Shown piece after piece: positions 6,992-22,752 of a DNA stretch of 64,000 bases (the stretch's first letter is position 1; every line of letters begins with the position of its first letter). The stretch covers positions 49,692 through 113,691 of the forward strand of contig DHOR01000028.1 in NCBI GenBank assembly GCA_002409995.1. The letters are read 5' to 3'. The DNA is from Hungatella sp. UBA5385 (lineage in GTDB: Bacteria; Bacillota; Clostridia; Lachnospirales; Lachnospiraceae). A program made the translations under genes and the position numbers. The notes beneath the pieces were generated by a model. It did not search any database and was not told where the DNA came from. It was given only the letters and a program-made list of their open reading frames with translations.

Positions 6992-7062
6992 TATTCTTGC
7001 TTTTAAGCATCATATTGGTTAAAGGAATGTAGAATTTATTAGTTAAATCTTGTGTAATATGA

Positions 7063-7110
7063 ACAAATGCATTGCTGTCTTTGAAACAGAATGCATTTGT
7101 TTTTTATTTT
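7063..7110 (+). terminator. Rho-independent terminator after regulator gene
   Basis: ACAAATGCATTGCTGT / ACAGAATGCATTTGT form a stem followed by TTTTTTATTTT. Confidence 0.8.
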
Positions 7111-7235
7111 GAGTTATCAATATGAGAATTCATTATCAAAATGACAATAGATATTAGGCAAGATATTCACACATATCTTAAAAACATCCGTCAATTTGAG
7201 AATACAAGACAATCTTGAGAGCCTAATTTCGATTT

Positions 7236-7264
7236 TTGACATACCCTTTTCACCATCCTATAAT
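7236..7264 (+). promoter_or_regulatory. Consensus sigma-70 promoter (TTGACA-17-TATAAT)
   Basis: TTGACA lies at 7236..7241 and TATAAT at 7259..7264, with an exact 17-nt spacer. The promoter is 64 nt upstream of ATG 7328. Confidence 0.7.
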
Positions 7265-7327
7265 CTAGCCATCGTTAACGGTAAACGTTTTGAAACTACT
7301 AAGGCAGGTGAAGGAGGTAAAAGTTAA

Positions 7328-8384: not shown

Positions 8385-8424
8385 TAGAGTTAAAAATAAT
8401 AACAAAAATATGGAGGGATTAGAT

Positions 8425-9597
8425 ATGTGTGATAAAACATTTGAGGAACAGCTGAAAGAATGGAGAAAATATCTTCATACGAATGCAGAAAGTGCTTTCG
8501 AAGAAAAAGTGACGGCTGCATTTGTTGCTGAAAAATTAAGAGAGATGGGGCTGGAAGTACATGAAAACGTGGGTATCACTGGAGTGGTGGGATCATTAAC
8601 AGTGGGAGATGGTAAGGAAGTAATTGGATTACGTGCCGATATGGACGCGATTCAGATGGAAGAGCAGAACGATTTTTCCTATAAGTCTAAAAATCCCCAG
8701 AGAATGCATGCCTGCGGTCACGATGGACATACCACAACTTTACTTGGAGCAGCTAAGCTGCTGTCGGAGAGAAGAGATTTCAATGGTACTGTTCGATTTA
8801 TATTTCAGCCTGCTGAAGAACCTGGGAAAGGTGCTAATGCAATGTTAGAGGATGGGCTGCTGCAGCGTTTTCCTATGAATGAAATTTACGGTTTACATAA
8901 CATGGTACAAGTGGAAAAAGGTACGATTCATACCAGAGCAGGCGGCATAATGGCCAGTGAAGATAATTTTGTTATTACAATTAAAGCAAAAGGTTCTCAT
9001 GCTTCTACTCCTCATTTAGGAATCGATCCCCTTGTTATTGCATCAGAGATCATTCTGGGGTTACAAACCATTGTTTCACGTAATATGAACCCACTATTGC
9101 CGGCAGTTATTTCCTGTACTGAGATGTTTACAGATGGTGTTCGTAATGCGATTCCAACAACTGTCGTTATCAAAGGTGACACAAGAAGCTGTGATCCTGT
9201 AATTCAAAAGTTGATTGAGGATAGAATGAGAAGTATCTCTGAAGGAATCTGTCATATGCATGGAGCTGATTGTATTTTTGAATATACACATGAATTTGCT
9301 CCCACATACAATTGGGAGAAATGTGTAAATACTGCAGTTGAAGCAGCTAAAAAGGTAGTAGGGGAAGAAAATGTAGTTAGTAATTGTGAACCTCTTATGG
9401 GCTCAGAGGATTTTGGCGCTTTCCTTAATGAGATTCCAGGATGTTTTGTATTCCTTGGAGGAGCTAAGAGTGAAGATCCAAAGAAAGAGATTCCCCTTCA
9501 TAATTCTCTTTACGATTATAACGAGGACATTTTGGTAACTGGTGCAGAGTACTTTGCGGAGCTGATTCGTACTCGTCTGCCTGTAGATAATGAGTAA
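8425..9597 (+). CDS. M20D-family amidohydrolase (N-acyl-amino acid / hippurate hydrolase-like)
   Basis: RBS GGAGGG lies 7 nt before ATG 8425. The motifs RADMDA, MHACGHDGH and FQPAEE are typical of peptidase M20D. Confidence 0.8.
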   Translation: MCDKTFEEQLKEWRKYLHTNAESAFEEKVTAAFVAEKLREMGLEVHENVGITGVVGSLTVGDGKEVIGLRADMDAIQMEEQNDFSYKSKNPQRMHACGHDGHTTTLLGAAKLLSERRDFNGTVRFIFQPAEEPGKGANAMLEDGLLQRFPMNEIYGLHNMVQVEKGTIHTRAGGIMASEDNFVITIKAKGSHASTPHLGIDPLVIASEIILGLQTIVSRNMNPLLPAVISCTEMFTDGVRNAIPTTVVIKGDTRSCDPVIQKLIEDRMRSISEGICHMHGADCIFEYTHEFAPTYNWEKCVNTAVEAAKKVVGEENVVSNCEPLMGSEDFGAFLNEIPGCFVFLGGAKSEDPKKEIPLHNSLYDYNEDILVTGAEYFAELIRTRLPVDNE

Positions 9598-9608
9598 GGG
9601 AGGGTACA

Positions 9609-10805
9609 ATGGATAAGAATATTAATTCGGTTCACTTTGACAGGAAGAGGGAAAAGACCCCTGTGACGGTAAAACAGTTTGGATTAGCAAATGCGAAAAA
9701 AGTATATAATTTTCATCGGAGTTTTCCGGAATACAAGGAAACGCCATTGGTAAATCTTGCTAGTCTTGCTGAGAGGCTTGGGGTAGCCAGTATACATGTA
9801 AAAGACGAAAGTTATCGATTCGGATTAAATGCGTTTAAGGTGCTGGGAGGAAGTTATTGCTTAGGAACTTATATTGCAGATTGCCTCAATACAGATATTA
9901 GTGAACTTTCTTATGAAAAGATCATCAGCAGGTCAGTGAAAGAAAAACTGGGAGAGATCACCTTTGTTACAGCCACCGACGGAAATCATGGAAGAGGTAT
10001 TGCGTGGACAGCTAACCGTTTAGGCCAAAAAAGTGTTGTATATATGCCAAAAGGAAGCTCTGTGGAGAGGCTGAATAACATCAAAGCACTTGGATCAGAT
10101 GCTTCAATAACCCAGGTCAATTATGATGATACGGTCCGTTTTGCCAGCCAGAGTGCTGAAAAAAATGGCTGGGTTCTTGTACAGGATACAGCCTGGGAAG
10201 GTTATGAAGATATACCTACTAGAATAATGGAGGGATACACCACCATGGCATATGAAATAGTAGATCAGCTGGGAGAGGAAAAACCTACCCATATCTTTTT
10301 ACAGGCTGGAGTCGGTGCCATGGCAGGAGCAATTACTGGATTTTTCGCAGATTTATATGGAGCAGAGAACTGCCCCATCATAACCATTGTAGAACCCCAA
10401 AAGGCGGATTGTATATATAAAACTGCGTATGCAAATGATGGTCAGCTTCATAAGGTTGAAGGAGATATGGATACTATAATGGCAGGTCTTGCATGTGGAG
10501 AACCCTGTTCCATAGGCTGGGATATTTTGAAAAACTATGCAGATCACTTTATATCAATGCCTGATTGTGTGGCAGCAAAAGGTATGCGGATACTTGGTAA
10601 TCCATTAGGAGATGATCAGAGGATTGTTTCAGGAGAAAGCGGAGCTGCTACGTTGGGATTTGTGGCAGAAGCTTTGATGAACAAGGAGCTGTCAGACTTA
10701 AAGGAAACCATTGGTCTTTGCGAGGATTCCAGGATTCTGTGTATATCAACTGAAGGAGATACGGATAGGGATAATTATCGTAAAATCGTGTGGGATGGTT
10801 TATAA
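9609..10805 (+). CDS. Diaminopropionate ammonia-lyase-like PLP enzyme (fold type II)
   Basis: RBS is GGGAGGG. The motifs VKDESYRFGLNAFKVLGGSY (PLP-Lys) and TATDGNHGRG match the DAP ammonia-lyase (YgeX/DpaL) family pattern. Confidence 0.7.
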   Translation: MDKNINSVHFDRKREKTPVTVKQFGLANAKKVYNFHRSFPEYKETPLVNLASLAERLGVASIHVKDESYRFGLNAFKVLGGSYCLGTYIADCLNTDISELSYEKIISRSVKEKLGEITFVTATDGNHGRGIAWTANRLGQKSVVYMPKGSSVERLNNIKALGSDASITQVNYDDTVRFASQSAEKNGWVLVQDTAWEGYEDIPTRIMEGYTTMAYEIVDQLGEEKPTHIFLQAGVGAMAGAITGFFADLYGAENCPIITIVEPQKADCIYKTAYANDGQLHKVEGDMDTIMAGLACGEPCSIGWDILKNYADHFISMPDCVAAKGMRILGNPLGDDQRIVSGESGAATLGFVAEALMNKELSDLKETIGLCEDSRILCISTEGDTDRDNYRKIVWDGL

Positions 10806-11967: not shown

Positions 11968-13239
11968 CTAATGCGCAAATACCTCCAGAGCAGCCCTCAA
12001 TTCAGGCTGCTCTTTTGCCGCCTCTTCTGAAGGAATGCCCTCTATGGCAGCCGTCACAGCTTGATACATAGCTTTCACTCCTGCAGCAGCACCCATGGGG
12101 TGTCCCTGAACAGCTCCGCCTGCAGCCAGAATAATATCAGTTCCTAAATCATCCATAAATTGTTTTACCATCCCTGGATGAACGCCTCCGCCGCAGATTG
12201 GCATAGTGGGGCGTAAATGATAGCAGGGAAGAGTTAAGTTCAGTGCAGTTTTAATATATTGCTGATTAGTCAATGGATAACCGCCATAGGGGGTATTCAT
12301 CATAACAAGGTCTGCACCTGCCATGCGGGGGAATTTTCCGACGGACAGATGGGAACCCATCCCGCTATGTGTCCCTTCATTATACATTCCAGAGGCTGCG
12401 CAATGCCCCATAACCGGAATGGTGATCTGCTCAGAAATGGCCTGAAAAGTGCTGTAACCTACAGTAGAAAAACACATCATAACAGCTTTGGCGCCTGCTT
12501 CTTCCACTTCCTTAAGAGTATCCAGTATTCTGTCAGAGGAATCTGTAATATTGCAGATGTAGATGGTTTCTTTGCCTGTTTTCTCGTAAGCAGCTTTAGC
12601 TGCCTGATTATAGGCTTTTACACGGTCTGCAGCTTTGCAGTAATCAGGATTACCCAGAAGCTCATCATCTTTAATAAAATCCACTCCTCCCAAAGCTGTT
12701 TCATAAAAGATTCTGGCTCCTGCCTCAGGAGTGAGACCTGTGCATGGTTTGATCATATTGAGGAGGAGGGGGCGGTCTTTGACTCCTGTCAGCTCTCTTA
12801 ATCCCTGAATACCGAACTTGGGTCCTTTAAAATGGTTGACATAAGATTCTGGTAACTGCAAATCCACCAGCTTTACCTGAGCGCTGGTAGAGGCGTCATT
12901 GCCAAGAAGTGTGGTAAACATCATAGGAAACTGAGGGCCGAAGTTTATGGTGGGATATGCAATCTGGATAAAATAGGTGCGCAGTCCGTCAGGAATCTGA
13001 GTGGATAACTCATAGGGAGGCGCATCCAGAATGTTGATAACCCGTCCCATGTGTTTATCCCGCATTTCATCAGTGATTCCGGGAACAGGAACCCAGGTTC
13101 CGATGGTCTGCCCCACTGCCATTGATTGCGCTTTTTTTACAACGTCAATGCTCTTATCCAGCTGGATATAATAGGTGGCAAGAGCATAATCCTGATTTTT
13201 GATATTTTCCATAAGGGAAAACAACTTGGAGTTTGTCAT
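11968..13239 (-). CDS. RuBisCO large-subunit-like protein, form IV (RLP)
   Basis: The RuBisCO large-chain catalytic-domain pattern is present: LLGND, IKPCTGL (KPK motif altered), GGVDFIKDDE, PVMGHCAASG, ICGGGVHPG and AAGGAVQGHP. The ATG lies 2 nt after the upstream TIM-family stop. Confidence 0.85.
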   Translation of the reverse strand: MTNSKLFSLMENIKNQDYALATYYIQLDKSIDVVKKAQSMAVGQTIGTWVPVPGITDEMRDKHMGRVINILDAPPYELSTQIPDGLRTYFIQIAYPTINFGPQFPMMFTTLLGNDASTSAQVKLVDLQLPESYVNHFKGPKFGIQGLRELTGVKDRPLLLNMIKPCTGLTPEAGARIFYETALGGVDFIKDDELLGNPDYCKAADRVKAYNQAAKAAYEKTGKETIYICNITDSSDRILDTLKEVEEAGAKAVMMCFSTVGYSTFQAISEQITIPVMGHCAASGMYNEGTHSGMGSHLSVGKFPRMAGADLVMMNTPYGGYPLTNQQYIKTALNLTLPCYHLRPTMPICGGGVHPGMVKQFMDDLGTDIILAAGGAVQGHPMGAAAGVKAMYQAVTAAIEGIPSEEAAKEQPELRAALEVFAH

Positions 13240-13241
13240 AG

Positions 13242-14048
13242 TCAGTTTTTTCTTCCTTTCTTCTGATGATGTAAGGGGAGAACTGAGCGTATGATTGCGT
13301 TCAGCTTATCAGCCTCCCAAGCGCTTCTGCCAATAAACAGTCCGTCAATATCAGACATCTGAATCAGCTTTTTGGCGTTTTCCGGATTAACGCTTCCTCC
13401 ATAGAGAACAGGAATATCAGTACCTGTTTCTTCGCCAAACAGCTCAATTAAAGTATCCTTAATCACTCTGTGCTTTTCGTTGGCATAATTCTCATCTGCC
13501 GGAATTCCCCTTGCTCCAATGGCCCATACAGGTTCATAGGCAATCCAGATGTTCTGTGCCTGGTTTTTTTTAATAGAATGAAGTCCGATTTTTAATTGGA
13601 TACGAAGGATTTCATCACTAATTCCATAAAGCTTTTCCTCCATTGTTTCGCCAATACAGAGAAGAGCGGTAAAACCGCTGTTTAAAGCTTTTGCTATTTT
13701 TAGCTCTTCCTCCTGATCGGTTTCGCCCATAATATGGCGGCGTTCTGAATGACCTGCCATGATCAGATCAATTCCGATTTCGTTTAGCATAACCGGGGAA
13801 ATCTCTCCGGTATACTGTCCCTCATCCTCCCAGCTCATATTCTGGGCTCCAATGAGAATTCTGCTGTCTTCAACAGTGTCTTTTGCAGCGGGCAGGGCAG
13901 TGTAGGAAGGGATGACAAAAAGCTCCATCTGGTCAGATGGAATATCTTCGGTCAAATAATTAAGGCTTTTAAGAAAACTGCATGTATCTGCAATGGTTTT
14001 ATACATCTTTGTATTGGTGCCAATATAAAGCTTATCTAATCGTTTCAT
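13242..14048 (-). CDS. Triose-phosphate isomerase family protein (TIM paralogue)
   Basis: The motifs GTNTKMY, AGHSERR, IAYEPVWAIG and YGGSV are present. RBS is GGAGG. Confidence 0.8.
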   Translation of the reverse strand: MKRLDKLYIGTNTKMYKTIADTCSFLKSLNYLTEDIPSDQMELFVIPSYTALPAAKDTVEDSRILIGAQNMSWEDEGQYTGEISPVMLNEIGIDLIMAGHSERRHIMGETDQEEELKIAKALNSGFTALLCIGETMEEKLYGISDEILRIQLKIGLHSIKKNQAQNIWIAYEPVWAIGARGIPADENYANEKHRVIKDTLIELFGEETGTDIPVLYGGSVNPENAKKLIQMSDIDGLFIGRSAWEADKLNAIIRSVLPLHHQKKGRKN

Positions 14049-14079
14049 CAGAAAACCTCCGTTTTCCAGTATAGTTTAG

Positions 14080-14547
14080 TCAGGATTCTTTCATAGTTTC
14101 AGATTCCACTTCCTTAATTGCGGAGACCTTTGGTGTAGAAGACCCGTCTTTAAATTCCAGATCCAGCCATTCTGCCAGAATCTTCTTGGCAAGCTCAATT
14201 CCGATAACCCTTTCTCCAAAGCAGATTACATTGCCATTATTGCTCAGCTTAAGACGTTCTCCTGAAAAGCTGTCGTGACAGACTCCTGCCCGTATGCCAG
14301 GAAACTTATTGGCTGTCATTGCCATGCCAAGCCCTGTTCCGCAGATGAGAACTCCTTCTTTTGTATAATTGCTGTCAATAATTCGCTGACAGGCTTTTTT
14401 TGCTATGTAAGGATAATAAACAGGGTCCTCCGGACTATTGCAGCCCATATCCTCAACTGTATAACCTTTTTCCACCATGAATTGCTTCAATGCATTCTTC
14501 ATAGGCACTGCAGCATTGTCACATCCGATTACAATTGTTTTGCTCAT
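14080..14547 (-). CDS. RpiB/LacA/LacB-family sugar-phosphate isomerase
   Basis: The start was chosen at MSKTIVIGCDNAA, downstream of AAGGAGG. The motifs ICGTGLGMAMTANK and NGNVICFGERV are typical of the family. Confidence 0.8.
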   Translation of the reverse strand: MSKTIVIGCDNAAVPMKNALKQFMVEKGYTVEDMGCNSPEDPVYYPYIAKKACQRIIDSNYTKEGVLICGTGLGMAMTANKFPGIRAGVCHDSFSGERLKLSNNGNVICFGERVIGIELAKKILAEWLDLEFKDGSSTPKVSAIKEVESETMKES

Positions 14548-14802
14548 AGATTGATTCAACCTCCTTTGATAAAACATGATTGTTGTTGATTTATCTTCAT
14601 ATTAGCATATGAAAACCCTACAATCAAGGATAAAAATAGGAAAACAAAGAAAAAATGCCTGAATTATATGGAGATCAAAAAAGAACAGAATAATAAATTG
14701 GGTAAAATGCCGGAAATAATCAATAAAAAAGGCAATACAAGCATAAAAATAGGGCAAAGTAAATAAAAACAAATAAAATCAGACAAAAAATAAGAAAAAC
14801 TA

Positions 14803-14831
14803 TTGTGAAAGAGAAAAGAATATGATACAAT
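14803..14831 (+). promoter_or_regulatory. Candidate promoter of the PTS operon (TTGTGA-17-TACAAT with TG extension)
   Basis: TTGTGA lies at 14803..14808 and TACAAT at 14826..14831, with aTGa immediately upstream. The site sits in a 320-bp AT-rich divergent intergenic region. Confidence 0.45.
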
Positions 14832-14912
14832 GTGAACATAATTTTTAGAGAAATTTAATAGTTTTTTAATGAAAGCTACAAAACAACAAAACTGGATAAG
14901 GAGGTGAAGACG

Positions 14913-15362
14913 TTGCTGAGAAAGGAATTGATTAAGCTCGATGCTGATGTTGAGAACTCTGAGGAAGCTCTTCGGATGATGGCAGAGATGTTTGTGCAGG
15001 AGGGAGCAGCAAAACCCAGCTACCCTGATGCTATTATAGCAAGAGAAGCTCAGTACCCTACGGCGCTGCCGGCGGAAGCTTTTGATATTGCAATACCTCA
15101 CACATTTGCAGAGCATGTGAATGAGCCGGCTATGGGAATTTGTGTGTTGAAGAATCCTGTGGAATTTAAACAGATGGGATCTCCGGAGATTACACTCCAC
15201 CCTCAGTTACTGTTTATGCTTGCAATTACAGATCCCAAGGATCAGATTACCTTGCTGCGGAAAATCATGAAGCTGATTCAGAATGCAGATGCATTGAAGC
15301 AGATTAAGGAAGCAGACAGTGTTGATGAAATTTATTCTATTGTAAATCCGCTTCTGTTTTAA
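14913..15362 (+). CDS. PTS EIIA component, EIIA-2 (mannitol/fructose/ascorbate-type) family
   Basis: AAGGAGG (14898..14904) lies 8 nt before TTG 14913. The track ORF begins at GTG 14904, inside the RBS. The active-site context is FDIAIPHT. Confidence 0.8.
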   Translation: MLRKELIKLDADVENSEEALRMMAEMFVQEGAAKPSYPDAIIAREAQYPTALPAEAFDIAIPHTFAEHVNEPAMGICVLKNPVEFKQMGSPEITLHPQLLFMLAITDPKDQITLLRKIMKLIQNADALKQIKEADSVDEIYSIVNPLLF

Positions 15363-15422
15363 CCAGGATTTACAATAGGAAAATATAAAATATGTTTCAT
15401 AGAGAAAGGATGGTTTTTTATT

Positions 15423-15737
15423 ATGGGAAAGAGAAAGGCAATTAAACTGTTGACAGTGTGCGGCTCCGGTATTGTTACCTCCTCCATGTTAGCCAATAAG
15501 CTGACTGACATGTTTGAGGAAGAGGGGTACGAGGTTACTGCCATGGAGGCGAATCCAAGTGAATTGGCTACTTATATAGCAAGAGAGAAGTATGATCTGG
15601 TAGCATATGCAAGTCCTATTAATGAAGAGGATTTGGCTGGAACTCCTGCACTTCCTGCAATCGGGCTTATTACGGGGCTGGGAGATGAGGAATTCTTAGA
15701 GCAGGCGCTTGAGATTTTTAAGGCAGCAGGCAAATAA
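15423..15737 (+). CDS. PTS EIIB component (galactitol/lactose-type, Cys phosphorylation site)
   Basis: The N-terminal motif KLLTVCGSGIVTSSM is present in a protein of about 100 aa. Confidence 0.8.
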   Translation: MGKRKAIKLLTVCGSGIVTSSMLANKLTDMFEEEGYEVTAMEANPSELATYIAREKYDLVAYASPINEEDLAGTPALPAIGLITGLGDEEFLEQALEIFKAAGK

Positions 15738-15765
15738 TCCACAATGAGAAAAGGGGGATTTATTA

Positions 15766-17184
15766 ATGGAAATGTTTTTTGGAGCAGTAAAGGCGTTTTT
15801 TGATACGTTCAGTGCAGTTGTGTTTGTTCCGATGATTATGTTTGTCATTAACATTGCTTTTAAAGTAAAACCCAAAAAGGCTTTTATTTCTGCCCTGTCA
15901 GCAGGTGTTGGTCTTCAGGGATTTAACCTGGTAATTGGAGCATACAGCCCGATTATTGAACCGATTATTACACGAATGGTAGAAGCCAGTGGTGTAAACC
16001 TTCCTGTATATGATGCGGGCTGGCCCAACACTTCTGTAGTGGCTTATTCCACACAGGCTGGTATGGTCTTTGTTGTAATTGCAATTTTACTTCAGGTATT
16101 TTTGTTCCTTTCCAAATACACAACCGTTTTCCAGGCTGGTGACCTTTGGAATAACTACTCTTACTTCTGCTGGGGCTCTATGCTCTATGTGCTGACAGGC
16201 AACATGTTTCTTGCTATCTGCCTGATGACAATGCAGCTGTTAATTACACTGCTTATTACAGAGGTGATTGCAAAAAGGTGGTCCACATATTATGGCTACC
16301 CCGGCTGTACCATAGCCTCGTTACATACTGCCACGGTGGCAGTGCTTGCCATTCCGTTAAACTGGCTGTTAAACAAGATGGGGCTTTATAAAATTCAGAT
16401 GGATCCTGAAGGAATGCGTAAAAAGCTGGGATTCATTGGCGAGCCTATGACGCTGGGATTAATGCTTGGTATTATTATTGGTTTTGTAGGAAATATAACA
16501 AGAATCGGCGAACTGAAGGCATGGGGAGAGATCTTAAGCTGTGGTATTGCAACTTCAGCAGTTATGTCCGTATTCCCTAAGATTTCTGCTATTTTCTCCG
16601 GAGCATTTACAGCCATTACAGAAGCTTCCAAGAAGAAGACAAAGGGCTTTAAGGGCGAGTGGTATCTGGCAGTTAATGATGCTACCGGATACGGCGAGAC
16701 AGCAACACTTGTAACAGGTCTTCTGACAATGCCTATTATTCTGCTGCTGGCTTTCGTGCTTCCTGGCAATACTACTTTACCTATGGTTGATCTGGTTGCA
16801 ATTCCTTATGTTATTCAGCCTATGGTAGCTATGAGTAACGGTAATGTTATTAAATCATTAATTGGTTCCATCATTGTATGTGTTATATTCCTGTATATCT
16901 GTTCTGCATGTGGCAGCACATTTACAGAAGTTGTACAGGTTGCAGGAGGTACCCTGGGAACAGGCGGCGCTATGATGGTTACTTCTCTTATTATTATCGG
17001 CCAGCCTATTGGTTATCTGACGTTCCTGATATTTGCCAGTCAGAACCCTATTTTAATAGGACTTCTGGTTGTGGTATATGCAGTGAGTTATGTACTGGTT
17101 CGCAAGAATAAGGAAAAAATCTATGCAGTATTAGAGCAGCAGGCTTTAAATCCAAGTGGAGCAGCTGTTGCAGAACAAGCTTAA
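15766..17184 (+). CDS. PTS EIIC component, galactitol (GatC) family
   Basis: The 472-aa polytopic protein has a GatC-like N-terminus (FFDTFSAVVFVPMIMFVINIAFKVKPKKAF) and follows the EIIA and EIIB genes. Confidence 0.8.
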   Translation: MEMFFGAVKAFFDTFSAVVFVPMIMFVINIAFKVKPKKAFISALSAGVGLQGFNLVIGAYSPIIEPIITRMVEASGVNLPVYDAGWPNTSVVAYSTQAGMVFVVIAILLQVFLFLSKYTTVFQAGDLWNNYSYFCWGSMLYVLTGNMFLAICLMTMQLLITLLITEVIAKRWSTYYGYPGCTIASLHTATVAVLAIPLNWLLNKMGLYKIQMDPEGMRKKLGFIGEPMTLGLMLGIIIGFVGNITRIGELKAWGEILSCGIATSAVMSVFPKISAIFSGAFTAITEASKKKTKGFKGEWYLAVNDATGYGETATLVTGLLTMPIILLLAFVLPGNTTLPMVDLVAIPYVIQPMVAMSNGNVIKSLIGSIIVCVIFLYICSACGSTFTEVVQVAGGTLGTGGAMMVTSLIIIGQPIGYLTFLIFASQNPILIGLLVVVYAVSYVLVRKNKEKIYAVLEQQALNPSGAAVAEQA

Positions 17185-17196
17185 AAATAGCGAATG

Positions 17197-17240
17197 AAAA
17201 CGCTGCACTGTTTAAATGGCAGTGCGGCGTTTTTATTCTT
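17197..17240 (+). terminator. Strong hairpin plus T-tract between EIIC and ptsI (terminator/attenuator)
   Basis: AAAACGCTGCACTG / CAGTGCGGCGTTTT form a 14-bp stem with one G-U pair and a loop TTTAAATGG, followed by TATTCTT. Confidence 0.65.
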
Positions 17241-17259
17241 ACAGAGGGGAATGAAGGAA

Positions 17260-18981
17260 ATGAGGATATATGGGGGAGATCCTGTATCAAAAGGTATTGC
17301 AGCAGGAAATGTTTATAAATATGTTCCTTATGAGGCTGATGTGGAGCAGAACCAGATTTCTCCTGATCAGGCGGAAGAGGAAGTAAGGAACTACAGAAAG
17401 GCAGTGGCGGGAGCGGAAGCGGAGCTGGCTTCCATGAGGGAGGCATTTTCCCGGGAGGGATCAGATCAGGGCGCTATTATTGGGGCTCATATGGAGATTT
17501 TAAATGATCCGGCACTTGAGGAAATGGTGACAGGATTTATCCGGGCTGAACTGCACAATGTAAAATGGGCCATTGACCGTTCCTTTACAAAGTTTATAAA
17601 AATGCTGAGCCGGGTGAAAGATGATATGATCCGGGAGCGGATTGCAGATATGAAGGATGTGAGAAACCGGCTATTGCGTAACTGCGATGGCGTGGAAGAG
17701 AGGAATCTGGGAGCGTTGACAAAGCCTGTCATAGTGGCTGCAAAGGATTTGTTCCCCTCTGACACAGCTTCTTTAAACAGAAACATGGTAAAGGCAATTG
17801 TTACAGAGACAGGAGGGGCAACCTCTCATACTGCTATTATTGCCAGAAGCTATGAGATTCCTGCTCTTCTGGGAGTTGCAAATGTTATGGAGCTTTTGGA
17901 AGACGGAGAGTGGATTTGTGTTGATGCCATTGATGGGATTCTTGCGGCAGATATGGACTCTGAAAAGATAGAGGAATATAGGGAAAAGGCTGAAAAGTAC
18001 CGTATAAAAACATTGGAAACAAAAAAGTATCTGAAGGTTATGCCTGTAACCTTAGATGGTGTCCCCATTGATGTTGAGTTGAATATTGGTTCTGCTTCTG
18101 AGGAGGAATTGGAGGCAGCAGCTTATACAGACGGAGTGGGTCTGTTCCGATCGGAGTTTTTGTATATGGGAAGAGACCGCCTGCCTTCCGAAGAGGAACA
18201 GACAGAAATTTACACCAGAGTGTTAAAGGCTTTTGGAAACAGACCTGTGACTCTCCGAACCTTGGATATAGGGGGAGATAAGAATCTGGATTATATGGAG
18301 CTTCCTAAGGAAGAGAATCCATTTCTGGGCAATCGGGCGCTGCGGCTTTGCTTTACCTATCCTGATATTTTAAAAACTCAGCTTCGGGCAGCGCTTCGGG
18401 CGGCAGTGGCTGGAAATCTATGGGTAATGTTTCCCATGGTGGGGAGTATGGAGGATATCAGGAAAGCCAAAGCATTGGTGAAAGAGGCACAAAGTGAACT
18501 TACTGAGGAGCAGTTTTCCTATGGAGAGATTAAAATTGGAATTATGATAGAGATTCCCTCCATTGCCTTGATTGCTGACATGGCTGTAAAAGAAGTGGAT
18601 TTTGCAAGTATCGGAACCAATGATCTCTGCCAGTACACTCTGGCTGTAGACCGGATGAATCCGTCAGTCAGCAAGTATTACCAGAAATATCATCCTGCTA
18701 TGTTTCGCCTCATCGGTCACATTGTAAAGACTTTTAATGATGCAGGAAAACCCATCTGCGTATGCGGAGAACTTGGGGGAGATGAACTTGGTGCTGCTGT
18801 ACTTATGGGGCTTGGCATGAGGAAGTTGAGCATGGGACAGGCGTCTGTTGCCCAGACGAAGAAAATGATTACGAAAATGACAATGCAGCGTGCTGAGCTA
18901 ATTGCAGAAACTGTCTGTAATCTATCTACAGAGGAAGAGATTGTTAATTATTTAACTGAAGCGCTTGCAGATATTTTATAG
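17260..18981 (+). CDS. ptsI: Phosphoenolpyruvate-protein phosphotransferase (PTS Enzyme I)
   Basis: The start was placed after the hairpin (MRIYGGDPVSKGIAAG). The phospho-His context is GGATSHTAIIARS, and the PEP-utilising C-terminal motifs GTNDL and CGELGGD are present. Confidence 0.9.
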   Translation: MRIYGGDPVSKGIAAGNVYKYVPYEADVEQNQISPDQAEEEVRNYRKAVAGAEAELASMREAFSREGSDQGAIIGAHMEILNDPALEEMVTGFIRAELHNVKWAIDRSFTKFIKMLSRVKDDMIRERIADMKDVRNRLLRNCDGVEERNLGALTKPVIVAAKDLFPSDTASLNRNMVKAIVTETGGATSHTAIIARSYEIPALLGVANVMELLEDGEWICVDAIDGILAADMDSEKIEEYREKAEKYRIKTLETKKYLKVMPVTLDGVPIDVELNIGSASEEELEAAAYTDGVGLFRSEFLYMGRDRLPSEEEQTEIYTRVLKAFGNRPVTLRTLDIGGDKNLDYMELPKEENPFLGNRALRLCFTYPDILKTQLRAALRAAVAGNLWVMFPMVGSMEDIRKAKALVKEAQSELTEEQFSYGEIKIGIMIEIPSIALIADMAVKEVDFASIGTNDLCQYTLAVDRMNPSVSKYYQKYHPAMFRLIGHIVKTFNDAGKPICVCGELGGDELGAAVLMGLGMRKLSMGQASVAQTKKMITKMTMQRAELIAETVCNLSTEEEIVNYLTEALADIL

Positions 18982-18998
18982 ATAAAAGGAGACTGAAC

Positions 18999-19271
18999 AT
19001 GGTTAAAAGAACAACGGTTATTAAAAATAAAACAGGGCTTCATGCCCGTCCTGCTTCAGATTTTGTGCAGGCAGCATCAAAATTTAAATCTAATATTTCC
19101 ATCTGCAGAGTGGGAGAGGAAGATGATGAGGTAAATGCAAAAAGTATTATATTTCTTCTGTCCTTAGGGCTGTGTCAGGGAGATGAGGCTGTAGTAAGCG
19201 CCAGCGGCGAAGATGAACAGGAGGCTGTGGATTATCTGGTTGAACTGATTGAATCCGGTTTTGGAGAATAG
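18999..19271 (+). CDS. ptsH: Phosphocarrier protein HPr
   Basis: The product is 90 aa with RBS AAAGGAGA. The His-15 context GLHARPA and the regulatory Ser context NAKSI are present. Confidence 0.9.
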   Translation: MVKRTTVIKNKTGLHARPASDFVQAASKFKSNISICRVGEEDDEVNAKSIIFLLSLGLCQGDEAVVSASGEDEQEAVDYLVELIESGFGE

Positions 19272-19287
19272 GAAAGGCTGATTGTCT

Positions 19288-19827
19288 ATGAGAATGGTGT
19301 TTAAATTTAAAATGTCAATTGATGATTATCATCATATGCTGATGTGCAGAACATTTGGAAATTCCCGGATCAGGCGTGGACTGCTGTTTATCAGCTGGGT
19401 AGTATTCACTGTACTTATTATCTGCGATCTTACTCATGTGCTGACACTTAGCCGGGTTGTTCATGTATGTGCCCTGATGGTGGCGGTGGCAGTGCCTGCA
19501 GCTTTTGTGACTATGGAAGTCAATGTATCGAAATACAAGGATGCCTATAAAGAGGGATTTAAAGCAGAACGCCAGATTATTGCAGATGAGGAAGGGCTTA
19601 CTTTCTGCAATCGTTCAACTGATGAATCAGGAAGCAACCCATGGACTGACGTGACCCGGCTGGAGGAGATGAAAAATGTATTTGTTATCCAGTTAAACCG
19701 GAGGGAGGCAGTGATTCTTCCGAAGCGGGGGATGGGAAATGACAAGAAGATAGAGATGTTTCGGGATCTGGCTAAGCAGAAGATTCCCAATCGGTTTTAT
19801 CCTTTGAAAGAAAGGGTGTTCCGTTGA
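19288..19827 (+). CDS. YcxB-like membrane protein (hypothetical)
   Basis: Two TM segments are followed by a YcxB-type C-terminal pattern (VFVIQLNRREAVILPKRGM). The family call is from memory of the motif. Confidence 0.5.
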   Translation: MRMVFKFKMSIDDYHHMLMCRTFGNSRIRRGLLFISWVVFTVLIICDLTHVLTLSRVVHVCALMVAVAVPAAFVTMEVNVSKYKDAYKEGFKAERQIIADEEGLTFCNRSTDESGSNPWTDVTRLEEMKNVFVIQLNRREAVILPKRGMGNDKKIEMFRDLAKQKIPNRFYPLKERVFR

Positions 19828-19847
19828 TGTATAAAAGCCGGAATCCA

Positions 19848-20642
19848 TTATGGATTCCAGCTTTTGTTTTCCGGCTGATCAGAGCGGGCTTCATAGATTT
19901 CCACATTGTGCTTTGCAAGGAAATCCAGCCACTGAATGCTAAGCTTGCGGTCTGTGATAATACCTGTAATATGCTCAAAGTCTGTAATATGGATAAAAGA
20001 GGTTTTGTCAAACTTGGAAAAGTCGGCTACAACATAAACCTCTTTGCTTCGTTCAATCAGAGATTGACGGACTGCTGCAACTGATTCCAGAGAATCTGTA
20101 ATTCCGTGTTCCATGGAAAGGCTGCGGCAGGACATGAAAGTCTTGTCCAGGTAATAGGTAGTCAGGCTGGCGCTGGTGCTGAGACCATGAAACGCTTTAT
20201 CTCTTGGAGTGTAATTGCCTCCAATGCAGACAAGATGGATGTTGGGAATTTCGCACAGTTCGTTGACTACCAGAAGGGAATTGGTAACAACGGTCAGACG
20301 CATATCGCTGACTGCTTTTGCTATGGCAAGGGCAGTTGTGGAGGAATCCAAAAAAATGGAGTCTCCATTGTGGATAATCTGACGGCATCGGTTGGCAATG
20401 GCTTGTTTACTTTTTATAAAGGTGGTTTCACGAAGTGAAAGATCTACATTGTTCTCTACACCATCCTGAATAAAAGCTCCGCCATAGGTTCGGATTAAAA
20501 AGCCTTCTCCCTCCATTTGCTTTAGATCTCTGCGGATGGTTTCTTCAGTTACAGAAAATAATTTTGCTAGTTCTGTAACAGTGACACTCTTTTTCTCCAG
20601 TATAAGGTCCCGGATTTCGGATTTTCGTGTAATGGCAAGCAT
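19848..20642 (-). CDS. DeoR family transcriptional regulator
   Basis: The start is at MLAITRKSEIRDLILEKKSVTVTELAKLF, preceded by GGAGA. A DeoR HTH is followed by a DeoR-C sugar-phosphate-binding domain (IFLDSSTT, VVTNS). Confidence 0.85.
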   Translation of the reverse strand: MLAITRKSEIRDLILEKKSVTVTELAKLFSVTEETIRRDLKQMEGEGFLIRTYGGAFIQDGVENNVDLSLRETTFIKSKQAIANRCRQIIHNGDSIFLDSSTTALAIAKAVSDMRLTVVTNSLLVVNELCEIPNIHLVCIGGNYTPRDKAFHGLSTSASLTTYYLDKTFMSCRSLSMEHGITDSLESVAAVRQSLIERSKEVYVVADFSKFDKTSFIHITDFEHITGIITDRKLSIQWLDFLAKHNVEIYEARSDQPENKSWNP

Positions 20643-20918
20643 GATTTGTCTCCTTTTTTTCATTTTTAACAAGGAATTTTCTTTTATTATAACATAAAGA
20701 TTTTGATTTCGATACAAGAATGTAACAGAAAACGCAAAAACTGGACAGTTAATTGAAAAAACATGGTTTTTATTCCTTGAAAGTCAAAAAAAGTTAATAA
20801 AACAACATTTCAAATCAACAAAACCAATAACATAACACATAACATTGACTTTGGTAAGGAGGTTTCTTTGGTTCATGAATATAAGAAATAAGCTAATAGA
20901 AAGTGGGGGAGAAGAATT

Positions 20919-21722
20919 ATGATGATAAAAGAAGAAAATAGTTATCTGACAGATGAGGAAGCTAAACAAGCTGTTTTAGACGTGGGAAAGCGTATGTATG
21001 ACCGGGGGTTTGTAGCTTCCAATGATGGAAATATCAGTGTAAAAACAGGACCGGAAACCATATGGGCAACACCTACCGGTGTATCAAAAGGCTTTATGAC
21101 AGAGGATATGCTGGTGAAGATGAATATGAATGGGGAGGTTTTAGAAGGAAAGATGAAGCCGTCATCTGAGATTAAAATGCACCTTCGGGTGTATAAGGAA
21201 AATCCTGATGTGCAGGCTGTCACTCATGCGCATCCTCCCATGGCTACTTGCTTTGCCATTGCAGGAAGACCGCTTGATGCAGCCATTCTGACAGAGGCAA
21301 TACTTAGCCTTGGAACGGTTCCTGTAGCAAAATATGCCACCCCAGGAACTGAGGAGGTGCCTGATTCCATTGCCCCCTTTGTAAATCATTACAATGCTGT
21401 TCTTCTGGCAAATCATGGAGCGCTTACATGGGGGCGGAATATCTATCAGGCTTACTACAGGCTGGAGTCTGTTGAATATTATGCCACGATTTTAATGTAT
21501 ACAGGCAATATTATCGGACAGCAGAATCATTTGTCCAGTGATCAGGTGGACAGACTTCTGGAGATTCGTAAGAATATGGGAATTACTGCAGGCGGAATTC
21601 CTCCTGGTATGGGAGATGGGGAAGGGATTTTTGCTTCTGGGCAGAACAGGGAGATGGGACAGAATAGAGAGGGGATCATTGAAGAGATAGTAAGGCGGGT
21701 ATTGAAGGAGCTGAATATTTAA
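20919..21722 (+). CDS. Class II aldolase/adducin-family protein (FucA/AraD/MtnB-like) with ~50-aa C-terminal extension
   Basis: RBS is GGGGGAGAAG. The motifs NDGNISV, SSEIKMHLRVY, HAHPP and LLANHGALTWG are present. The protein is 267 aa, versus about 215 aa for typical family members. Confidence 0.8.
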   Translation: MMIKEENSYLTDEEAKQAVLDVGKRMYDRGFVASNDGNISVKTGPETIWATPTGVSKGFMTEDMLVKMNMNGEVLEGKMKPSSEIKMHLRVYKENPDVQAVTHAHPPMATCFAIAGRPLDAAILTEAILSLGTVPVAKYATPGTEEVPDSIAPFVNHYNAVLLANHGALTWGRNIYQAYYRLESVEYYATILMYTGNIIGQQNHLSSDQVDRLLEIRKNMGITAGGIPPGMGDGEGIFASGQNREMGQNREGIIEEIVRRVLKELNI

Positions 21723-21728
21723 ATAAAA

Positions 21729-21776
21729 ATAGCTTTTAAAGGCGGAAAATTCTTCGCATTTAAAAGCTATTTTCTA
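21729..21776. terminator. Bidirectional terminator between convergent genes
   Basis: ATAGCTTTTAAA / TTTAAAAGCTAT form a perfect 12-bp stem, flanked by A-runs upstream and T-runs downstream. Confidence 0.75.
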
Positions 21777-21777
21777 T

Positions 21778-22752
21778 TTACTGATATGTCAGATTCATAA
21801 TGATCCCCTGAGGGTGATCCCCATATTTTTCGCCGAATAAATTTATTCCTCCCACATGCTTTGCATCATCCTTGACAGCAATTCGAAATGCTATAAATGG
21901 CTGGTCATCAATAGCAATATCCCAAAGCTTTACATCTGGATTAATCAGCTTCCCATCCAGATAACTTCCATTTTCTCTGACAGAAACAGTTTTTAAAATC
22001 CCGTACTGTGTGCTTCCGTTTGGCCAGGAGGGCGGTGTCAGCTTCCCTCTTCTGGCTCCGTAATCTCCAGGTGAGCAGTAGGTTCCGATCTCTTTGTTGT
22101 TAATATAAAGAGTGATGTCTGAAGGCCAGTTTTCCAGATAACCAGGGGCTTCAGAGCAGATTTCCAGGCAAAAGGACAATTCGCTTAAGTCAAGCTGCTG
22201 ATTGTTTAAGTTGGGGAATCTGTACTCAATGAATCCCTTATGGAACCATATAAGCTGAGCCTTGGTCCGGGCGGGAGAATAGAAAGAGCGGATAGCATCG
22301 TAAGTATCAATGGGTCCGCTTTCATCTGCCAGTCCGCAGGTGGGAGTGATATCGCAGTTATAGTAGTTACCAATTGGCATATCCATGGTGATGGTTCTGT
22401 TTACGGAGTCAATGGCAGAATCAAAGGTTTCCAGATAAAAGGACTGAAGGCTACAGGTACATACCCGCATAGAACCCCGAATCCCGGGCTGGCTCTCAGT
22501 GACTACCATTTGAGCCTGTTCCAGAGTTTTTATATGGAGAGCAGCAGAGGACAGAGGGATGTCCAGCATGGAGGCGATCTCTTGAAGAGATCTTACGTTG
22601 TTTCTTAATATACTAAGAATCTCCAGACGTATAGGGGAGGACAGGGCTTTGCCGATTTTCACGATAGAATCACGGTGAGATGGATTGCTTAGGTGAAGTC
22701 GAATGTTCCTTTCTCCAATAATTCTCACAGTACGTTTTTCACGATAAGACAT
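21778..22752 (-). CDS. ArsR-family HTH regulator with large (~230 aa) C-terminal domain of unknown function
   Basis: The start is at MSYREKRT, preceded by AAAGGAG. The ArsR wHTH is LSSPIRLEILSILRNNVRSLQEIASMLDIPLSSAALHIKTLEQA. Confidence 0.7.
   Translation of the reverse strand: MSYREKRTVRIIGERNIRLHLSNPSHRDSIVKIGKALSSPIRLEILSILRNNVRSLQEIASMLDIPLSSAALHIKTLEQAQMVVTESQPGIRGSMRVCTCSLQSFYLETFDSAIDSVNRTITMDMPIGNYYNCDITPTCGLADESGPIDTYDAIRSFYSPARTKAQLIWFHKGFIEYRFPNLNNQQLDLSELSFCLEICSEAPGYLENWPSDITLYINNKEIGTYCSPGDYGARRGKLTPPSWPNGSTQYGILKTVSVRENGSYLDGKLINPDVKLWDIAIDDQPFIAFRIAVKDDAKHVGGINLFGEKYGDHPQGIIMNLTYQ

What the first reader, a model, noticed from the sequence alone, without database searches (positions are those of the whole stretch)
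21558..21722. Class II aldolase carries a C-terminal tail resembling a bacterial-microcompartment encapsulation peptide, with no shell genes nearby
The aldolase-family protein is about 50 aa longer than typical FucA/AraD/MtnB proteins. The extra segment starts with a low-complexity Gly/Pro/Gln/Asn linker (GGIPPGMGDGEGIFASGQNREMGQNR). It ends in an amphipathic helix, EGIIEEIVRRVLKELNI. This linker-plus-helix layout and sequence resemble known encapsulation peptides, for example the EutC and PduD/PduP N-termini of the type QIEEIVRSVM. C-terminal encapsulation peptides on class II aldolases are known from fucose/rhamnose-type microcompartment loci. No BMC-H, BMC-T or BMC-P shell gene is present anywhere in these 64 kb. 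The gene would therefore be a satellite cargo gene, linking the PTS/RLP cluster to a compartment encoded elsewhere.
Basis: partly seen in the sequence, partly recalled or inferred. Interest (0 to 1): 0.65.

Follow-up and report, generated by a model that had tools for sequence, protein, structure and literature searches.

The report
Microcompartment-targeting tail on a stranded aldolase
This sugar-phosphate aldolase carries the tail that normally delivers such enzymes into a bacterial protein organelle, but the neighbouring organelle genes present in its closest relative are missing here, so it is a known kind of targeting signal left behind after gene loss.

Summary
ORF 20919-21722 (+) encodes a 267-aa class II aldolase. 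Its catalytic core ends near residue 228, followed by a roughly 22-aa disordered linker and a 17-aa amphipathic helix (EGIIEEIVRRVLKELNI). The tail is not a chance look-alike. It is homologous to the C-terminal encapsulation peptide of 51 orthologues that lie 1-2 kb from shell genes. It scores 26.8 bits on a profile of those tails, against 8.1 at most for shuffled tails.

The window has no shell genes. The nearest relative, Clostridiales bacterium VE202-15, shares the RLP-TIM-RpiB-PTS-DeoR-aldolase synteny. Its operon then runs straight on into aldehyde dehydrogenase, four BMC-H genes, PduL, BMC-P and an alcohol dehydrogenase, which is a "PVM-like" locus. In the window a strong terminator and unrelated genes follow the aldolase instead. 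Four related species show the same truncation, and one of them has lost the helix.

No matching aldehyde dehydrogenase from this genome appears in the protein collection. The gene is therefore best read as stranded cargo, not a designed satellite. I could not test whether it still reaches another compartment type. Encapsulation peptides on class II aldolases are already described, so interest is moderate.

The parts
20919..21722 (+). Class II aldolase gene (267 aa), monocistronic in this genome
   Evidence: ORF. Pfam PF00596 at E 1.6e-51. The metal ligands and catalytic Glu (E84, H103, H105, H166) are invariant in alignment A1. Core pN/pS against relatives is about 0.15-0.2.
20919..21602 (+). 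Catalytic core, residues 1-228, ending in the subfamily-wide GITxGGxP motif
   Evidence: PDB and NCBIfam matches end at residues 215-222. The motif is also present in tail-less homologues.
21603..21668 (+). Variable Gly/Gln/Asn-rich linker, residues 229-250. It is shortened relative to shell-linked relatives and lacks their LKGVTPLVRPG and CGCG motifs.
   Evidence: Alignments. pLDDT below 50 for residues 231-249. Motif survey.
21669..21719 (+). C-terminal amphipathic helix EGIIEEIVRRVLKELNI (residues 251-267), an encapsulation-peptide homologue
   Evidence: Profile from 51 shell-linked tails gives 26.8 bits, against 8.1 at most for shuffles. AF2 helix at 247-265. Hydrophobic moment 0.53.
21720..21780 (.). 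AT-rich hairpin with a T-run, starting at the aldolase stop codon. It is a likely two-way terminator between the convergent aldolase and HTH_20 genes. It sits where relatives have the AldDH start codon.
   Evidence: RNA fold gives -23.8 kcal/mol, z = -6.8, with 0 of 200 shuffles as stable. The simple consensus scan missed it. In L006 the AldDH ORF starts 10 nt after the aldolase stop.
19848..20642 (-). DeoR-family regulator transcribed divergently from the aldolase. The DeoR-aldolase pair is the conserved head of PVM-like loci.
   Evidence: Pfam HTH_DeoR and DeoRC. An orthologue lies next to the aldolase in most related loci. NCBIfam matches are all below cut-off.
11968..14577 (-). RuBisCO-like protein (11968-13239), TIM-family isomerase (13242-14048) and RpiB-family isomerase (14080-14577)
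   Evidence: Pfam and NCBIfam. The RLP is closest to MtnW models but below cut-off (335 against 409). TIM and RpiB pass the TIGR00419 and TIGR01120 cut-offs. The block is syntenic with L006, L086, L087 and L025.
14913..19827 (+). PTS module: EIIA (14913-15362), EIIB (15423-15737), EIIC-GAT (15766-17184), Enzyme I (17260-18981), HPr (18999-19271) and a YcxB-domain protein (19288-19827)
   Evidence: Gene calls and Pfam for the identical contig L001. Conserved with the aldolase in L006, L086, L087 and L025.
21778..22752 (-). HTH_20 regulator, the first of the unrelated genes (followed by GH2, CdaR, GntP and a glycerate-kinase-like gene) that occupy the place of the shell and core-enzyme block
   Evidence: No counterpart in L006, L086 or L087.

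Best explanation
The tail is a genuine, inherited C-terminal encapsulation peptide.

The protein is an orthologue of the signature class II aldolase of the 'PVM-like' metabolosome of Firmicutes. In that system the conserved operon is DeoR <-> aldolase - aldehyde dehydrogenase (with an N-terminal EP) - several BMC-H genes - PduL/PTAC - BMC-P (- Fe-ADH).

In this genome everything after the aldolase is absent. A strong terminator follows the stop codon, and then come unrelated genes.

Shown:
- The tail is homologous to shell-linked tails.
- The upstream synteny matches a relative that still has the shell block.
- The block is absent from this locus, here and in four related species.

Inferred:
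- The block was deleted, probably more than once in this group.
- The cognate compartment is no longer encoded in this genome.
- The aldolase now works free in the cytosol as the C-C-cleaving step of the sugar-phosphate pathway encoded upstream (PTS, RpiB, TIM, RLP). It would give DHAP plus a short aldehyde.
- The helix is a leftover under weakened but not absent constraint. It may keep a secondary role, either self-association or entry into a non-cognate compartment.
For: Tail and shell genes across related loci:
- All 51 orthologues with shell genes in the fetched locus (mostly 0.9-2.3 kb from the aldolase) carry a tail scoring at least 27.8 bits.
- Of 22 loci with no shell genes in the fetched sequence (4-10 kb downstream), 12 keep the tail and 10 lack it.
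- No shell-linked member lacks the tail.

Nearest relative, L006:
- DNA is syntenic with window 12076-21604.
- Downstream of its aldolase lie AldDH, four BMC-H genes, PTAC, EutN and Fe-ADH, then SpoIIP and LepA.
- None of these is in the window.

Related truncated loci:
- L086, L092 and L078 have aldolase followed directly by SpoIIP, with LepA next in the two contigs long enough to show it (L086, L078). These are the L006 flanks minus the block.
- L087 has aldolase followed by other genes.
- L078 has lost the helix in all three frames.
- The linker motifs conserved in shell-linked relatives have decayed in this group.

Search for a relocated block:
- Every AldDH hit closer than about 76% to the L006 enzyme either sits next to an aldolase in a complete locus where I read its contig, or is at least 78% identical to the AldDH of such a locus. 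None of these carries an NCBI source.
- All NCBI-sourced hits are at least 84% identical to other lineages, except one from a Blautia MAG.
- None lies on a 245,081-bp contig, the length of this window's contig.

Other points:
- A hairpin terminator replaces the AldDH start.
- The junction is reproduced in independent assemblies.
- Clostridium lamae (L025) has the same RLP/PTS/DeoR cluster with a tail-less aldolase and no shell genes, so the pathway does not need a compartment.
Against: - The helix is conserved well above neutral expectation although synonymous sites are near saturation. Within the truncated group helix pN is 0.19-0.31 against pS 0.43-0.96.
- In Bacillaceae the tail-bearing aldolases without shell genes conserve the helix as well as shell-linked controls do. 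That argues for a retained function rather than a pure relic.
- I could not read the rest of the genome. A compartment of another type (EUT, PDU or GRM, which often co-occur with PVM-like loci according to PMC8217296 Supplementary Data 2) cannot be excluded.
- The AldDH test lists only the 120 closest clusters and depends on the source labels of cluster representatives.
- The phylogenetic position of the window lineage is unresolved. Bootstrap support for grouping it with the other truncated loci is 47%, and synonymous distances place it outside them. The timing of the loss is therefore unknown.
Confidence: 0.6

Rival explanations
1. True satellite cargo. The genome encodes a microcompartment elsewhere, either a non-cognate type such as EUT2, GRM or PDU or a divergent PVM-like one. 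The helix still delivers the aldolase into it, so the aldehyde made from the PTS/RLP pathway is processed inside a shell.
For: - The helix is under purifying selection in the truncated lineages.
- PVM-like loci frequently co-occur with EUT2B and GRM1A loci (PMC8217296 Supplementary Data 2).
- The tail closely resembles N-terminal EPs of other cargo such as the L006 AldDH (DIERIVRQVMAAME).
- If the aldehyde product is acetaldehyde, as for DrdA, the solved structure ranking third, just behind a pneumococcal FucA, a EUT-type core could process it.
Against: - No shell gene in 64 kb.
- No cognate AldDH attributable to this genome.
- One truncated relative has discarded the helix, and linker motifs have decayed.
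- In four tail-bearing orphan species with 1-5.5 Mb scaffolds, no PVM-like AldDH maps to those scaffolds, while seven shell-linked controls were recovered by the same test.
Confidence: 0.25
2. Shell-independent role. The amphipathic helix is kept because it does something without a shell. Possibilities are higher-order self-association of the aldolase tetramer, binding to a pathway partner, or membrane or PTS proximity.
For: - The helix is conserved in at least three independent groups of orphan aldolases at levels like shell-linked controls.
- Those genomes show no cognate AldDH on Mb-scale scaffolds.
- The literature model holds that EPs first aggregate cargo with each other (PMC4594438).
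Against: - Tail-less orthologues exist in the same gene contexts, so the helix is dispensable for the pathway (L025, L042, L056, L061, L065, L070 and L078).
- Among loci with shell genes the tail is universal, so its primary selective context is the compartment.
- There is no direct evidence for any alternative partner.
Confidence: 0.14
3. Chance resemblance. The tail is a low-complexity extension plus an unrelated helix.
For: The hydrophobic moment alone is only marginally unusual, since 7% of shuffles reach it.
Against: - The profile score is 26.8 bits against 8.1 at most for shuffles.
- The EIVRRV core is shared with dozens of shell-linked orthologues.
- The upstream synteny matches a locus with shell genes.
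Confidence: 0.01

Closest known systems
[quoted passage not shown] 2015, PMC4594438; Axen et al. 2014, PMC4207490; Sutter et al. 2021, PMC8217296)
   Same: - It is a roughly 17-aa amphipathic helix at the C-terminus of a PF00596 aldolase.
- A poorly conserved linker separates it from the core. The published range is 23-81 aa, and here it is about 22 aa.
- The extension is absent from aldolases not associated with compartments.
- The gene sits next to a DeoR regulator, as described for PVM and PVM-like loci.
   Different: - No shell, AldDH, PTAC or ADH gene follows it.
- The gene is monocistronic and has its own terminator.
- The linker is at the short end of the range. It has lost motifs that shell-linked Lachnospiraceae orthologues conserve.
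PVM-like BMC locus of Firmicutes. Shell proteins of Hungatella hathewayi WAL-18680 and Paenibacillus thiaminolyticus BO5 (this study's L041) are labelled 'PVMlike (main)' in the 2021 catalog.
   Same: The window's DeoR-aldolase pair is orthologous to the head of these loci. The nearest relative, L006, has the full locus.
   Different: - The window keeps only the head.
- The feeder module upstream is PTS + RLP + TIM + RpiB. Most PVM-like loci instead have ABC transporter + MtnK + MtnA there.
DrdA, 5-deoxyribulose-1-phosphate aldolase of Bacillus thuringiensis (PDB 6BTD/6BTG; Beaudoin et al. 2018, PMC6079011) and the DHAP-shunt aldolase Ald2
   Same: - It is among the closest solved structures (100 bits, against 83 for E. 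coli FucA).
- In most orthologous loci the aldolase follows MtnK- and MtnA-type genes, which is the DrdK-DrdI-DrdA arrangement.
   Different: - DrdA is 222 aa with no tail and no compartment.
- The window has no MtnK or MtnA.
- Substrate specificity here is untested.
Satellite BMC loci (Sutter et al. 2021)
   Same: A compartment-related gene lies away from any main locus.
   Different: The published definition requires shell genes in the satellite locus, and this locus has none. Comparative evidence points to loss of the main locus at this very position, not fission.

Membership tests
Class II aldolase/adducin family (PF00596) | Pfam match above the gathering score | tested here: met
   175.3 bits against a cut-off of 22.2.
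Class II aldolase/adducin family (PF00596) | Catalytic Glu and three metal-binding His | tested here: met
   E84, H103, H105 and H166 are invariant in A1. Assigning them to the FucA/DrdA ligands rests on my knowledge of those structures and on PMC6079011.
BMC encapsulation peptide (aldolase C-terminal type) | Terminal extension that is absent from homologues not associated with compartments | tested here: met
   All PDB homologues are 200-231 aa and align only to residues 8-222. Tail-less orthologues are 222-232 aa.
BMC encapsulation peptide (aldolase C-terminal type) | Amphipathic helix of about 15-20 aa after a poorly conserved linker | tested here: met
   AF2 helix at 247-265 and linker pLDDT below 50. 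Paired-hydrophobic pattern with moment 0.53. Linker unalignable between relatives.
BMC encapsulation peptide (aldolase C-terminal type) | Sequence homology to tails of aldolases encoded beside shell genes | tested here: met
   26.8 bits on a profile of 51 shell-linked tails, against 8.1 at most for shuffles.
BMC encapsulation peptide (aldolase C-terminal type) | Shell genes (PF00936 and PF03319) in the same locus | tested here: not met
   None in 64 kb.
BMC encapsulation peptide (aldolase C-terminal type) | Shell genes somewhere in the same genome | not testable with these tools
Indirect test for the cognate type only: no attributable AldDH.
BMC encapsulation peptide (aldolase C-terminal type) | The tail is sufficient or necessary for encapsulation | not testable with these tools
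   Needs a fusion or deletion experiment.
PVM-like BMC locus | Class II aldolase with a DeoR-family regulator | tested here: met
   Published description in PMC4207490.
PVM-like BMC locus | BMC-H and BMC-P shell genes plus an acylating aldehyde dehydrogenase (and PTAC) | tested here: not met
   Absent from the window. Present in L006, L014, L089, L090 and L091.
Satellite BMC locus (Sutter 2021 definition) | Contains shell protein genes distal from a main locus | tested here: not met
   No shell genes. Definition quoted.
L-fuculose-phosphate aldolase (FucA equivalogs) | NCBIfam equivalog score above cut-off | tested here: not met
   The best match, NF005302, scores 126.4 against 264. TIGR01086 scores 90.7 against 400.
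MtnB methylthioribulose-1-P dehydratase | NCBIfam TIGR03328 score above cut-off | tested here: not met
   87.9 against 137.05.
DrdA / DHAP-shunt aldolase | Clustered with MtnK/DrdK kinase and MtnA/DrdI isomerase | tested here: not met
   No MtnK or MtnA homologue in the window. They are present upstream in most orthologous loci, where they pass the NCBIfam cut-offs.
DrdA / DHAP-shunt aldolase | Cleaves 5-deoxyribulose-1-P to DHAP and acetaldehyde | not testable with these tools
   Enzyme assay needed. Only sequence proximity to 6BTD is available.

The most novel reading that the evidence does not exclude
Encapsulation-peptide helices persist under purifying selection on signature aldolases long after the cognate shell operon is gone. 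This holds for 13 tail-bearing orphan loci in at least four lineages. If so, the peptide would have a second function, either shell-independent enzyme clustering or entry into non-cognate compartments.

Together with this, the 'PVM-like' metabolosome of Firmicutes may not be a fucose/rhamnose organelle. It may be a 5-deoxypentose (DHAP-shunt, DrdK/DrdI/DrdA-type) organelle that confines acetaldehyde. The window's PTS + RuBisCO-like protein + TIM + RpiB module would then be an alternative, uncharacterised feeder route to the same aldolase.
Probability: 0.3. Interest if true: 0.65.

Novelty: new member of a known kind. Interest (0 to 1): 0.4.

Why it matters
For annotation, an encapsulation-type tail on an enzyme does not by itself mean that the organism makes a microcompartment. 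Here it marks a locus that has lost one.

For the microcompartment field, stranded cargo genes of this kind recur. Among loci with enough flank to judge, 13 orphan loci still carry the tail. They offer a natural experiment on what encapsulation peptides do without their shell.

The comparison also places an uncharacterised PTS/RuBisCO-like-protein cluster directly upstream of a metabolosome in a close relative. It further shows that most 'PVM-like' loci are headed by MtnK/MtnA-type genes. Both points suggest testable substrates for an organelle type that has so far been assigned to fucose/rhamnose by analogy.

Tried and rejected
1. Identifying the organism:
- No cluster member at 90% identity or above carries a name.
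- A protein just beyond the window edge, reached through a metagenome contig, returned only a JGI function name and no organism.
- The window's own species was not among the 80 loci returned by the genome-collection scan. The closest locus is 80% identical.

2. Hunting for a relocated shell block:
- I searched with the AldDH of the nearest relative. Every close hit was attributable to a complete locus of another lineage, by reading its contig or by its identity to the AldDH of such a locus.

3. Checking whether orphan species appear in the 2021 BMC catalog supplements:
- The species names were not found. The held files are truncated, so this is inconclusive.

4. Amino-acid NJ bootstrap to test a single ancestral loss:
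- Support is only 47% for including the window. The first script timed out and the second was invalidated by an empty sequence.

5. The intergenic DeoR-aldolase alignment was largely unalignable for the window.

6. The consensus terminator and promoter scan found nothing useful. The hairpin was found by folding instead.

7. Readings considered and rejected:
- MtnB-type dehydratase working with the RLP: below cut-off, and the orthologues sit in aldehyde-processing operons.
- FucA equivalog: below cut-off.
Full report
**What is at the coordinates**

Pfam Aldolase_II covers residues 18-191 (E 1.6e-51). NCBIfam models and all solved homologues, which are 200-231 aa, align only as far as residues 215-222. 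The protein therefore has a C-terminal extension of about 45 aa that no solved class II aldolase has.

The segment GITxGGxP (residues 221-228) is conserved across the subfamily, including members that end there. The true variable linker is about residues 229-250 and the helix is residues 251-267. AlphaFold2, run with a shallow alignment, gives pLDDT below 50 for 231-249 and a helix at 247-265. The hydrophobic residues fall in pairs (II..IV..VL..L). The hydrophobic moment of 0.53 is in the range I computed for known encapsulation peptides, but 7% of shuffles reach it, so it is weak evidence on its own.

**Is the tail more than a look-alike?**

Yes. A protein search found several thousand relatives. 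Nearly all of the 120 closest are 250-400 aa long and end in a variable linker plus a helix of the type KEEIIAEVVRRVxEQL.

A scan of one genome per species returned 80 loci. I searched them with PduA, EutM and EutN:
- In 51 loci, BMC-H genes (1-6) lie mostly 0.9-2.3 kb from the aldolase, with a BMC-P gene in all but one of them. Every one of these aldolases has the tail.
- A profile built from those 51 tails scores the window tail at 26.8 bits. Training sequences score 27.8-49.4 and shuffled tails at most 8.1.
- Among 22 loci with 4 kb or more of downstream sequence and no shell genes, 12 keep a tail (21-42 bits) and 10 lack it.
- The tail is thus universal where shells are adjacent and optional where they are not.

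The literature already describes this peptide. [quoted passage not shown] It carries a C-terminal helix of about 17 aa behind a 23-81-aa linker (PMC4594438; PMC4207490; PMC8217296).

**What the neighbourhood shows**

The window has no shell genes and no metabolosome core enzymes. Its closest relative in the genome collection is Clostridiales bacterium VE202-15 (L006, aldolase 80% identical).

L006 is colinear at the DNA level with window 12076-21604. The shared genes are RuBisCO-like protein, TIM, RpiB, PTS EIIA/B/C, Enzyme I, HPr, a YcxB-domain protein, the DeoR regulator and the aldolase core. Protein identities are 71-92%.

In L006 the next ORF starts 10 nt after the aldolase stop codon. 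It is an aldehyde dehydrogenase with an N-terminal EP (DIERIVRQVMAAME). Four BMC-H genes, PduL/PTAC, EutN/BMC-P and an Fe-alcohol dehydrogenase follow, and then SpoIIP and LepA.

This is the 'PVM-like' locus type. The 2021 catalog labels shell proteins of Hungatella hathewayi and of Paenibacillus thiaminolyticus BO5 (my L041) as PVMlike. [quoted passage not shown]

In the window the aldolase stop codon is followed by a very stable hairpin with a T-run (-23.8 kcal/mol, z -6.8). After that come a convergent HTH_20 regulator, a GH2 glycosidase and a sugar-acid cluster. The junction recurs in several independent assemblies.

**Related truncated loci**

Four more species in the same small group lack the block:
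- L086 and L092 have DeoR-aldolase-SpoIIP. These are exactly the L006 flanks without the block, and in L086 LepA follows as well.
- L078 has the same junction, followed by LepA, and has lost the helix in all three reading frames.
- L087 has aldolase followed by other genes.

Separately, Clostridium lamae (L025) has the same RLP/PTS/DeoR cluster with a tail-less 232-aa aldolase and no shells.

The window aldolase is therefore the retained first gene of a metabolosome operon, not a gene placed apart from one.

Whether the loss happened once or several times is unresolved. Amino-acid NJ bootstrap gives 73% for L078 + L086 + L087 + P0002 and 47% when the window is included. Synonymous distances put the window outside that group plus L006. 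At least two losses seem likely.

**Is the compartment encoded elsewhere?**

I could not read the rest of the genome. The organism is masked, and attempts to name it failed.

As an indirect test I searched the protein collection with the L006 AldDH. The collection does hold this genome's NCBI proteins.
- The hits closer than about 76% that I traced to their contigs sit in complete loci with an aldolase upstream. The remaining close hits are at least 78% identical to the AldDH of such a locus, and none carries an NCBI source.
- Every NCBI-sourced hit is at least 84% identical to a locus of another lineage, except one from a Blautia MAG.
- None lies on a 245,081-bp contig.

So there is no sign of a relocated cognate block. 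Other compartment types remain possible.

I ran the same test with a Bacillaceae AldDH. It recovered seven shell-linked control loci by their contig lengths. It recovered none of the 1-5.5 Mb scaffolds of four tail-bearing orphan species (L046, L055, L060, L062). Orthologues without the cognate compartment nearby, and probably without it in the genome, thus carry the same tail.

**Is the helix still under selection?**

- Within the truncated group, helix pN is 0.19-0.31 against pS 0.43-0.96. Core pN is 0.05-0.13.
- The helix pN/pS ratio within the compact truncated group (L086, L087, L092), about 0.35-0.5, is roughly twice that of shell-linked Lachnospiraceae controls (0.13-0.26). With 17 codons this is only suggestive.
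- The linker motifs that shell-linked Lachnospiraceae conserve (LKGVTPLVRPG, CGCG) have decayed in the truncated group, and one member dropped the helix.
- In contrast, Bacillaceae orphans conserve the helix as well as their shell-linked controls do.

Overall, the helix is not evolving neutrally. In the window's group the constraint looks weakened.

**Most likely mechanism**

Shown:
- The tail is homologous to EPs of shell-linked aldolases.
- The upstream synteny matches a shell-bearing relative.
- The block is absent from this locus.

Inferred:
- The enzyme is the aldol-cleaving step of the sugar-phosphate pathway encoded upstream and produces DHAP plus a short aldehyde.
- In relatives the helix recruits it into the PVM-like shell, where AldDH, PTAC and ADH handle the aldehyde.
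- In this genome it acts in the cytosol, and the helix is a leftover with at most a secondary role.

I give this reading 0.6. I give 0.25 to continued targeting into a compartment encoded elsewhere, 0.14 to a shell-independent role as the main reason the helix is kept, and 0.01 to chance resemblance.

**Substrate clues (side result)**

In most orthologous loci, with or without shells, the DeoR-aldolase pair is preceded by a sugar ABC transporter, a kinase and an isomerase. The kinase and isomerase pass NCBIfam's cut-offs for MtnK and MtnA.

The closest solved structures include DrdA, the 5-deoxyribulose-1-phosphate aldolase that releases acetaldehyde (PDB 6BTD).

This is the DrdK-DrdI-DrdA or 'DHAP shunt' arrangement. 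No paper in the searchable library links it to microcompartments. The literature assumes fucose/rhamnose-like substrates for PVM-like compartments (PMC8156839).

In the window's group the ABC-MtnK-MtnA module is replaced, at the same position, by PTS + RLP + TIM + RpiB. The RLP is closest to MtnW models but scores below their cut-off. What this module feeds to the aldolase is unknown.

**Comparison and verdict**

The feature works like, and descends from, the aldolase encapsulation peptide of PVM-like loci. It meets the sequence-level criteria for that peptide. It fails the locus-level criterion of shell genes nearby, and it fails the published definition of a satellite locus.

It is a new member of a known kind, found in a degenerate locus. 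Interest is moderate (0.4). The main value lies in showing that such tails can outlive their compartment, and in the leads on the substrate of PVM-like compartments.

Noticed in passing
L014:2801-8943, L089:1746-7942 and about 45 other loci: Most PVM-like shell loci, and many shell-less orthologous loci, have a sugar ABC transporter, an MtnK-type kinase and an MtnA-type isomerase directly upstream of DeoR-aldolase. The kinase and isomerase both pass NCBIfam equivalog cut-offs. This is the DrdK/DrdI/DrdA (5-deoxyribose, DHAP-shunt) arrangement. It suggests the PVM-like compartment handles acetaldehyde from 5-deoxypentoses rather than lactaldehyde from fucose/rhamnose. No paper in the library links the two.
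   Followed up: partly
window 11968-19827; also L006:924-8834, L086, L087, L025: A conserved module of RuBisCO-like protein + TIM + RpiB (minus strand) and PTS EIIA/EIIB/EIIC-GAT + Enzyme I + HPr + a YcxB-domain protein (plus strand). The RLP is closest to MtnW and below cut-off. The module occupies the position that ABC-MtnK-MtnA holds in other loci. In L006 it is contiguous with a complete shell locus. In Clostridium lamae it goes with a tail-less aldolase. Substrate and RLP reaction are unknown.
   Followed up: partly
Linkers of shell-linked aldolases, e.g. L006, L007, L014, L029, L084, P0013-P0041: Many shell-linked aldolases share conserved linker motifs, (L/M)KGVTP(L/I)V(R/K)PG and CGCG/CSC. 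The literature describes the linker as unconserved. The first motif occurs in 21 of 52 shell-linked loci and in 1 of 22 shell-less loci (a frameshifted gene). It has decayed in the window's group. The association is confounded by phylogeny.
   Followed up: partly
window 21720-21780: A 25-bp AT-rich hairpin (-23.8 kcal/mol, z -6.8) with flanking T/A runs lies between the convergent aldolase and HTH_20 genes. It is a likely bidirectional terminator. The consensus terminator scan missed it because the stem has few G-C pairs.
   Followed up: yes
L078:148-963 (uncultured Clostridium sp. UMGS1373): This aldolase is 81% identical to the window's and is followed by SpoIIP-LepA. Its tail ends ...GTDGGNSRPAGDGCR and no helix is encoded in any frame. 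It is a stranded aldolase that has already lost the peptide.
   Followed up: yes
L022:10001-11100 (uncultured Dorea sp. MAG MGBC116935): The encapsulation helix (TKEEIIAEVARRVVEELKTGGTV) is in a different frame from the aldolase core. Only the N-terminal part of the AldDH, with its EP, is recognisable and no shell genes follow. This is either a decaying locus or MAG sequence errors.
   Followed up: partly
window 20701-20716; L006, L086, L087, L025 upstream of the DeoR gene: A conserved TTTTGATTTCGA(A/T)ACA element containing the palindrome TTTCGAAA (TTTCGATA in the window) sits at the DeoR end of the DeoR-aldolase intergenic region. It may be the operator. The ORF tool's TTG start at 20717 probably overextends DeoR, since gene calls give 264 aa ending at 20642.
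   Followed up: no
L089:13702-20571 and L014:15818-19918: Lacrimispora-type loci extend beyond BMC-P with a solute-binding protein, a pyridine-nucleotide disulphide oxidoreductase, two CoA-transferase subunits and an Fe-ADH. L089 also has dihydroxyacetone kinase Dak1/Dak2. These accessory genes are not part of the published minimal description of PVM-like loci.
   Followed up: no
window 3797-10805: An unrelated amino-acid-type cluster: saccharopine-dehydrogenase-like gene (minus strand), sigma-54 activator, Na:alanine symporter, M20 peptidase and a PLP-dependent enzyme. It shows no connection to the aldolase.
   Followed up: no
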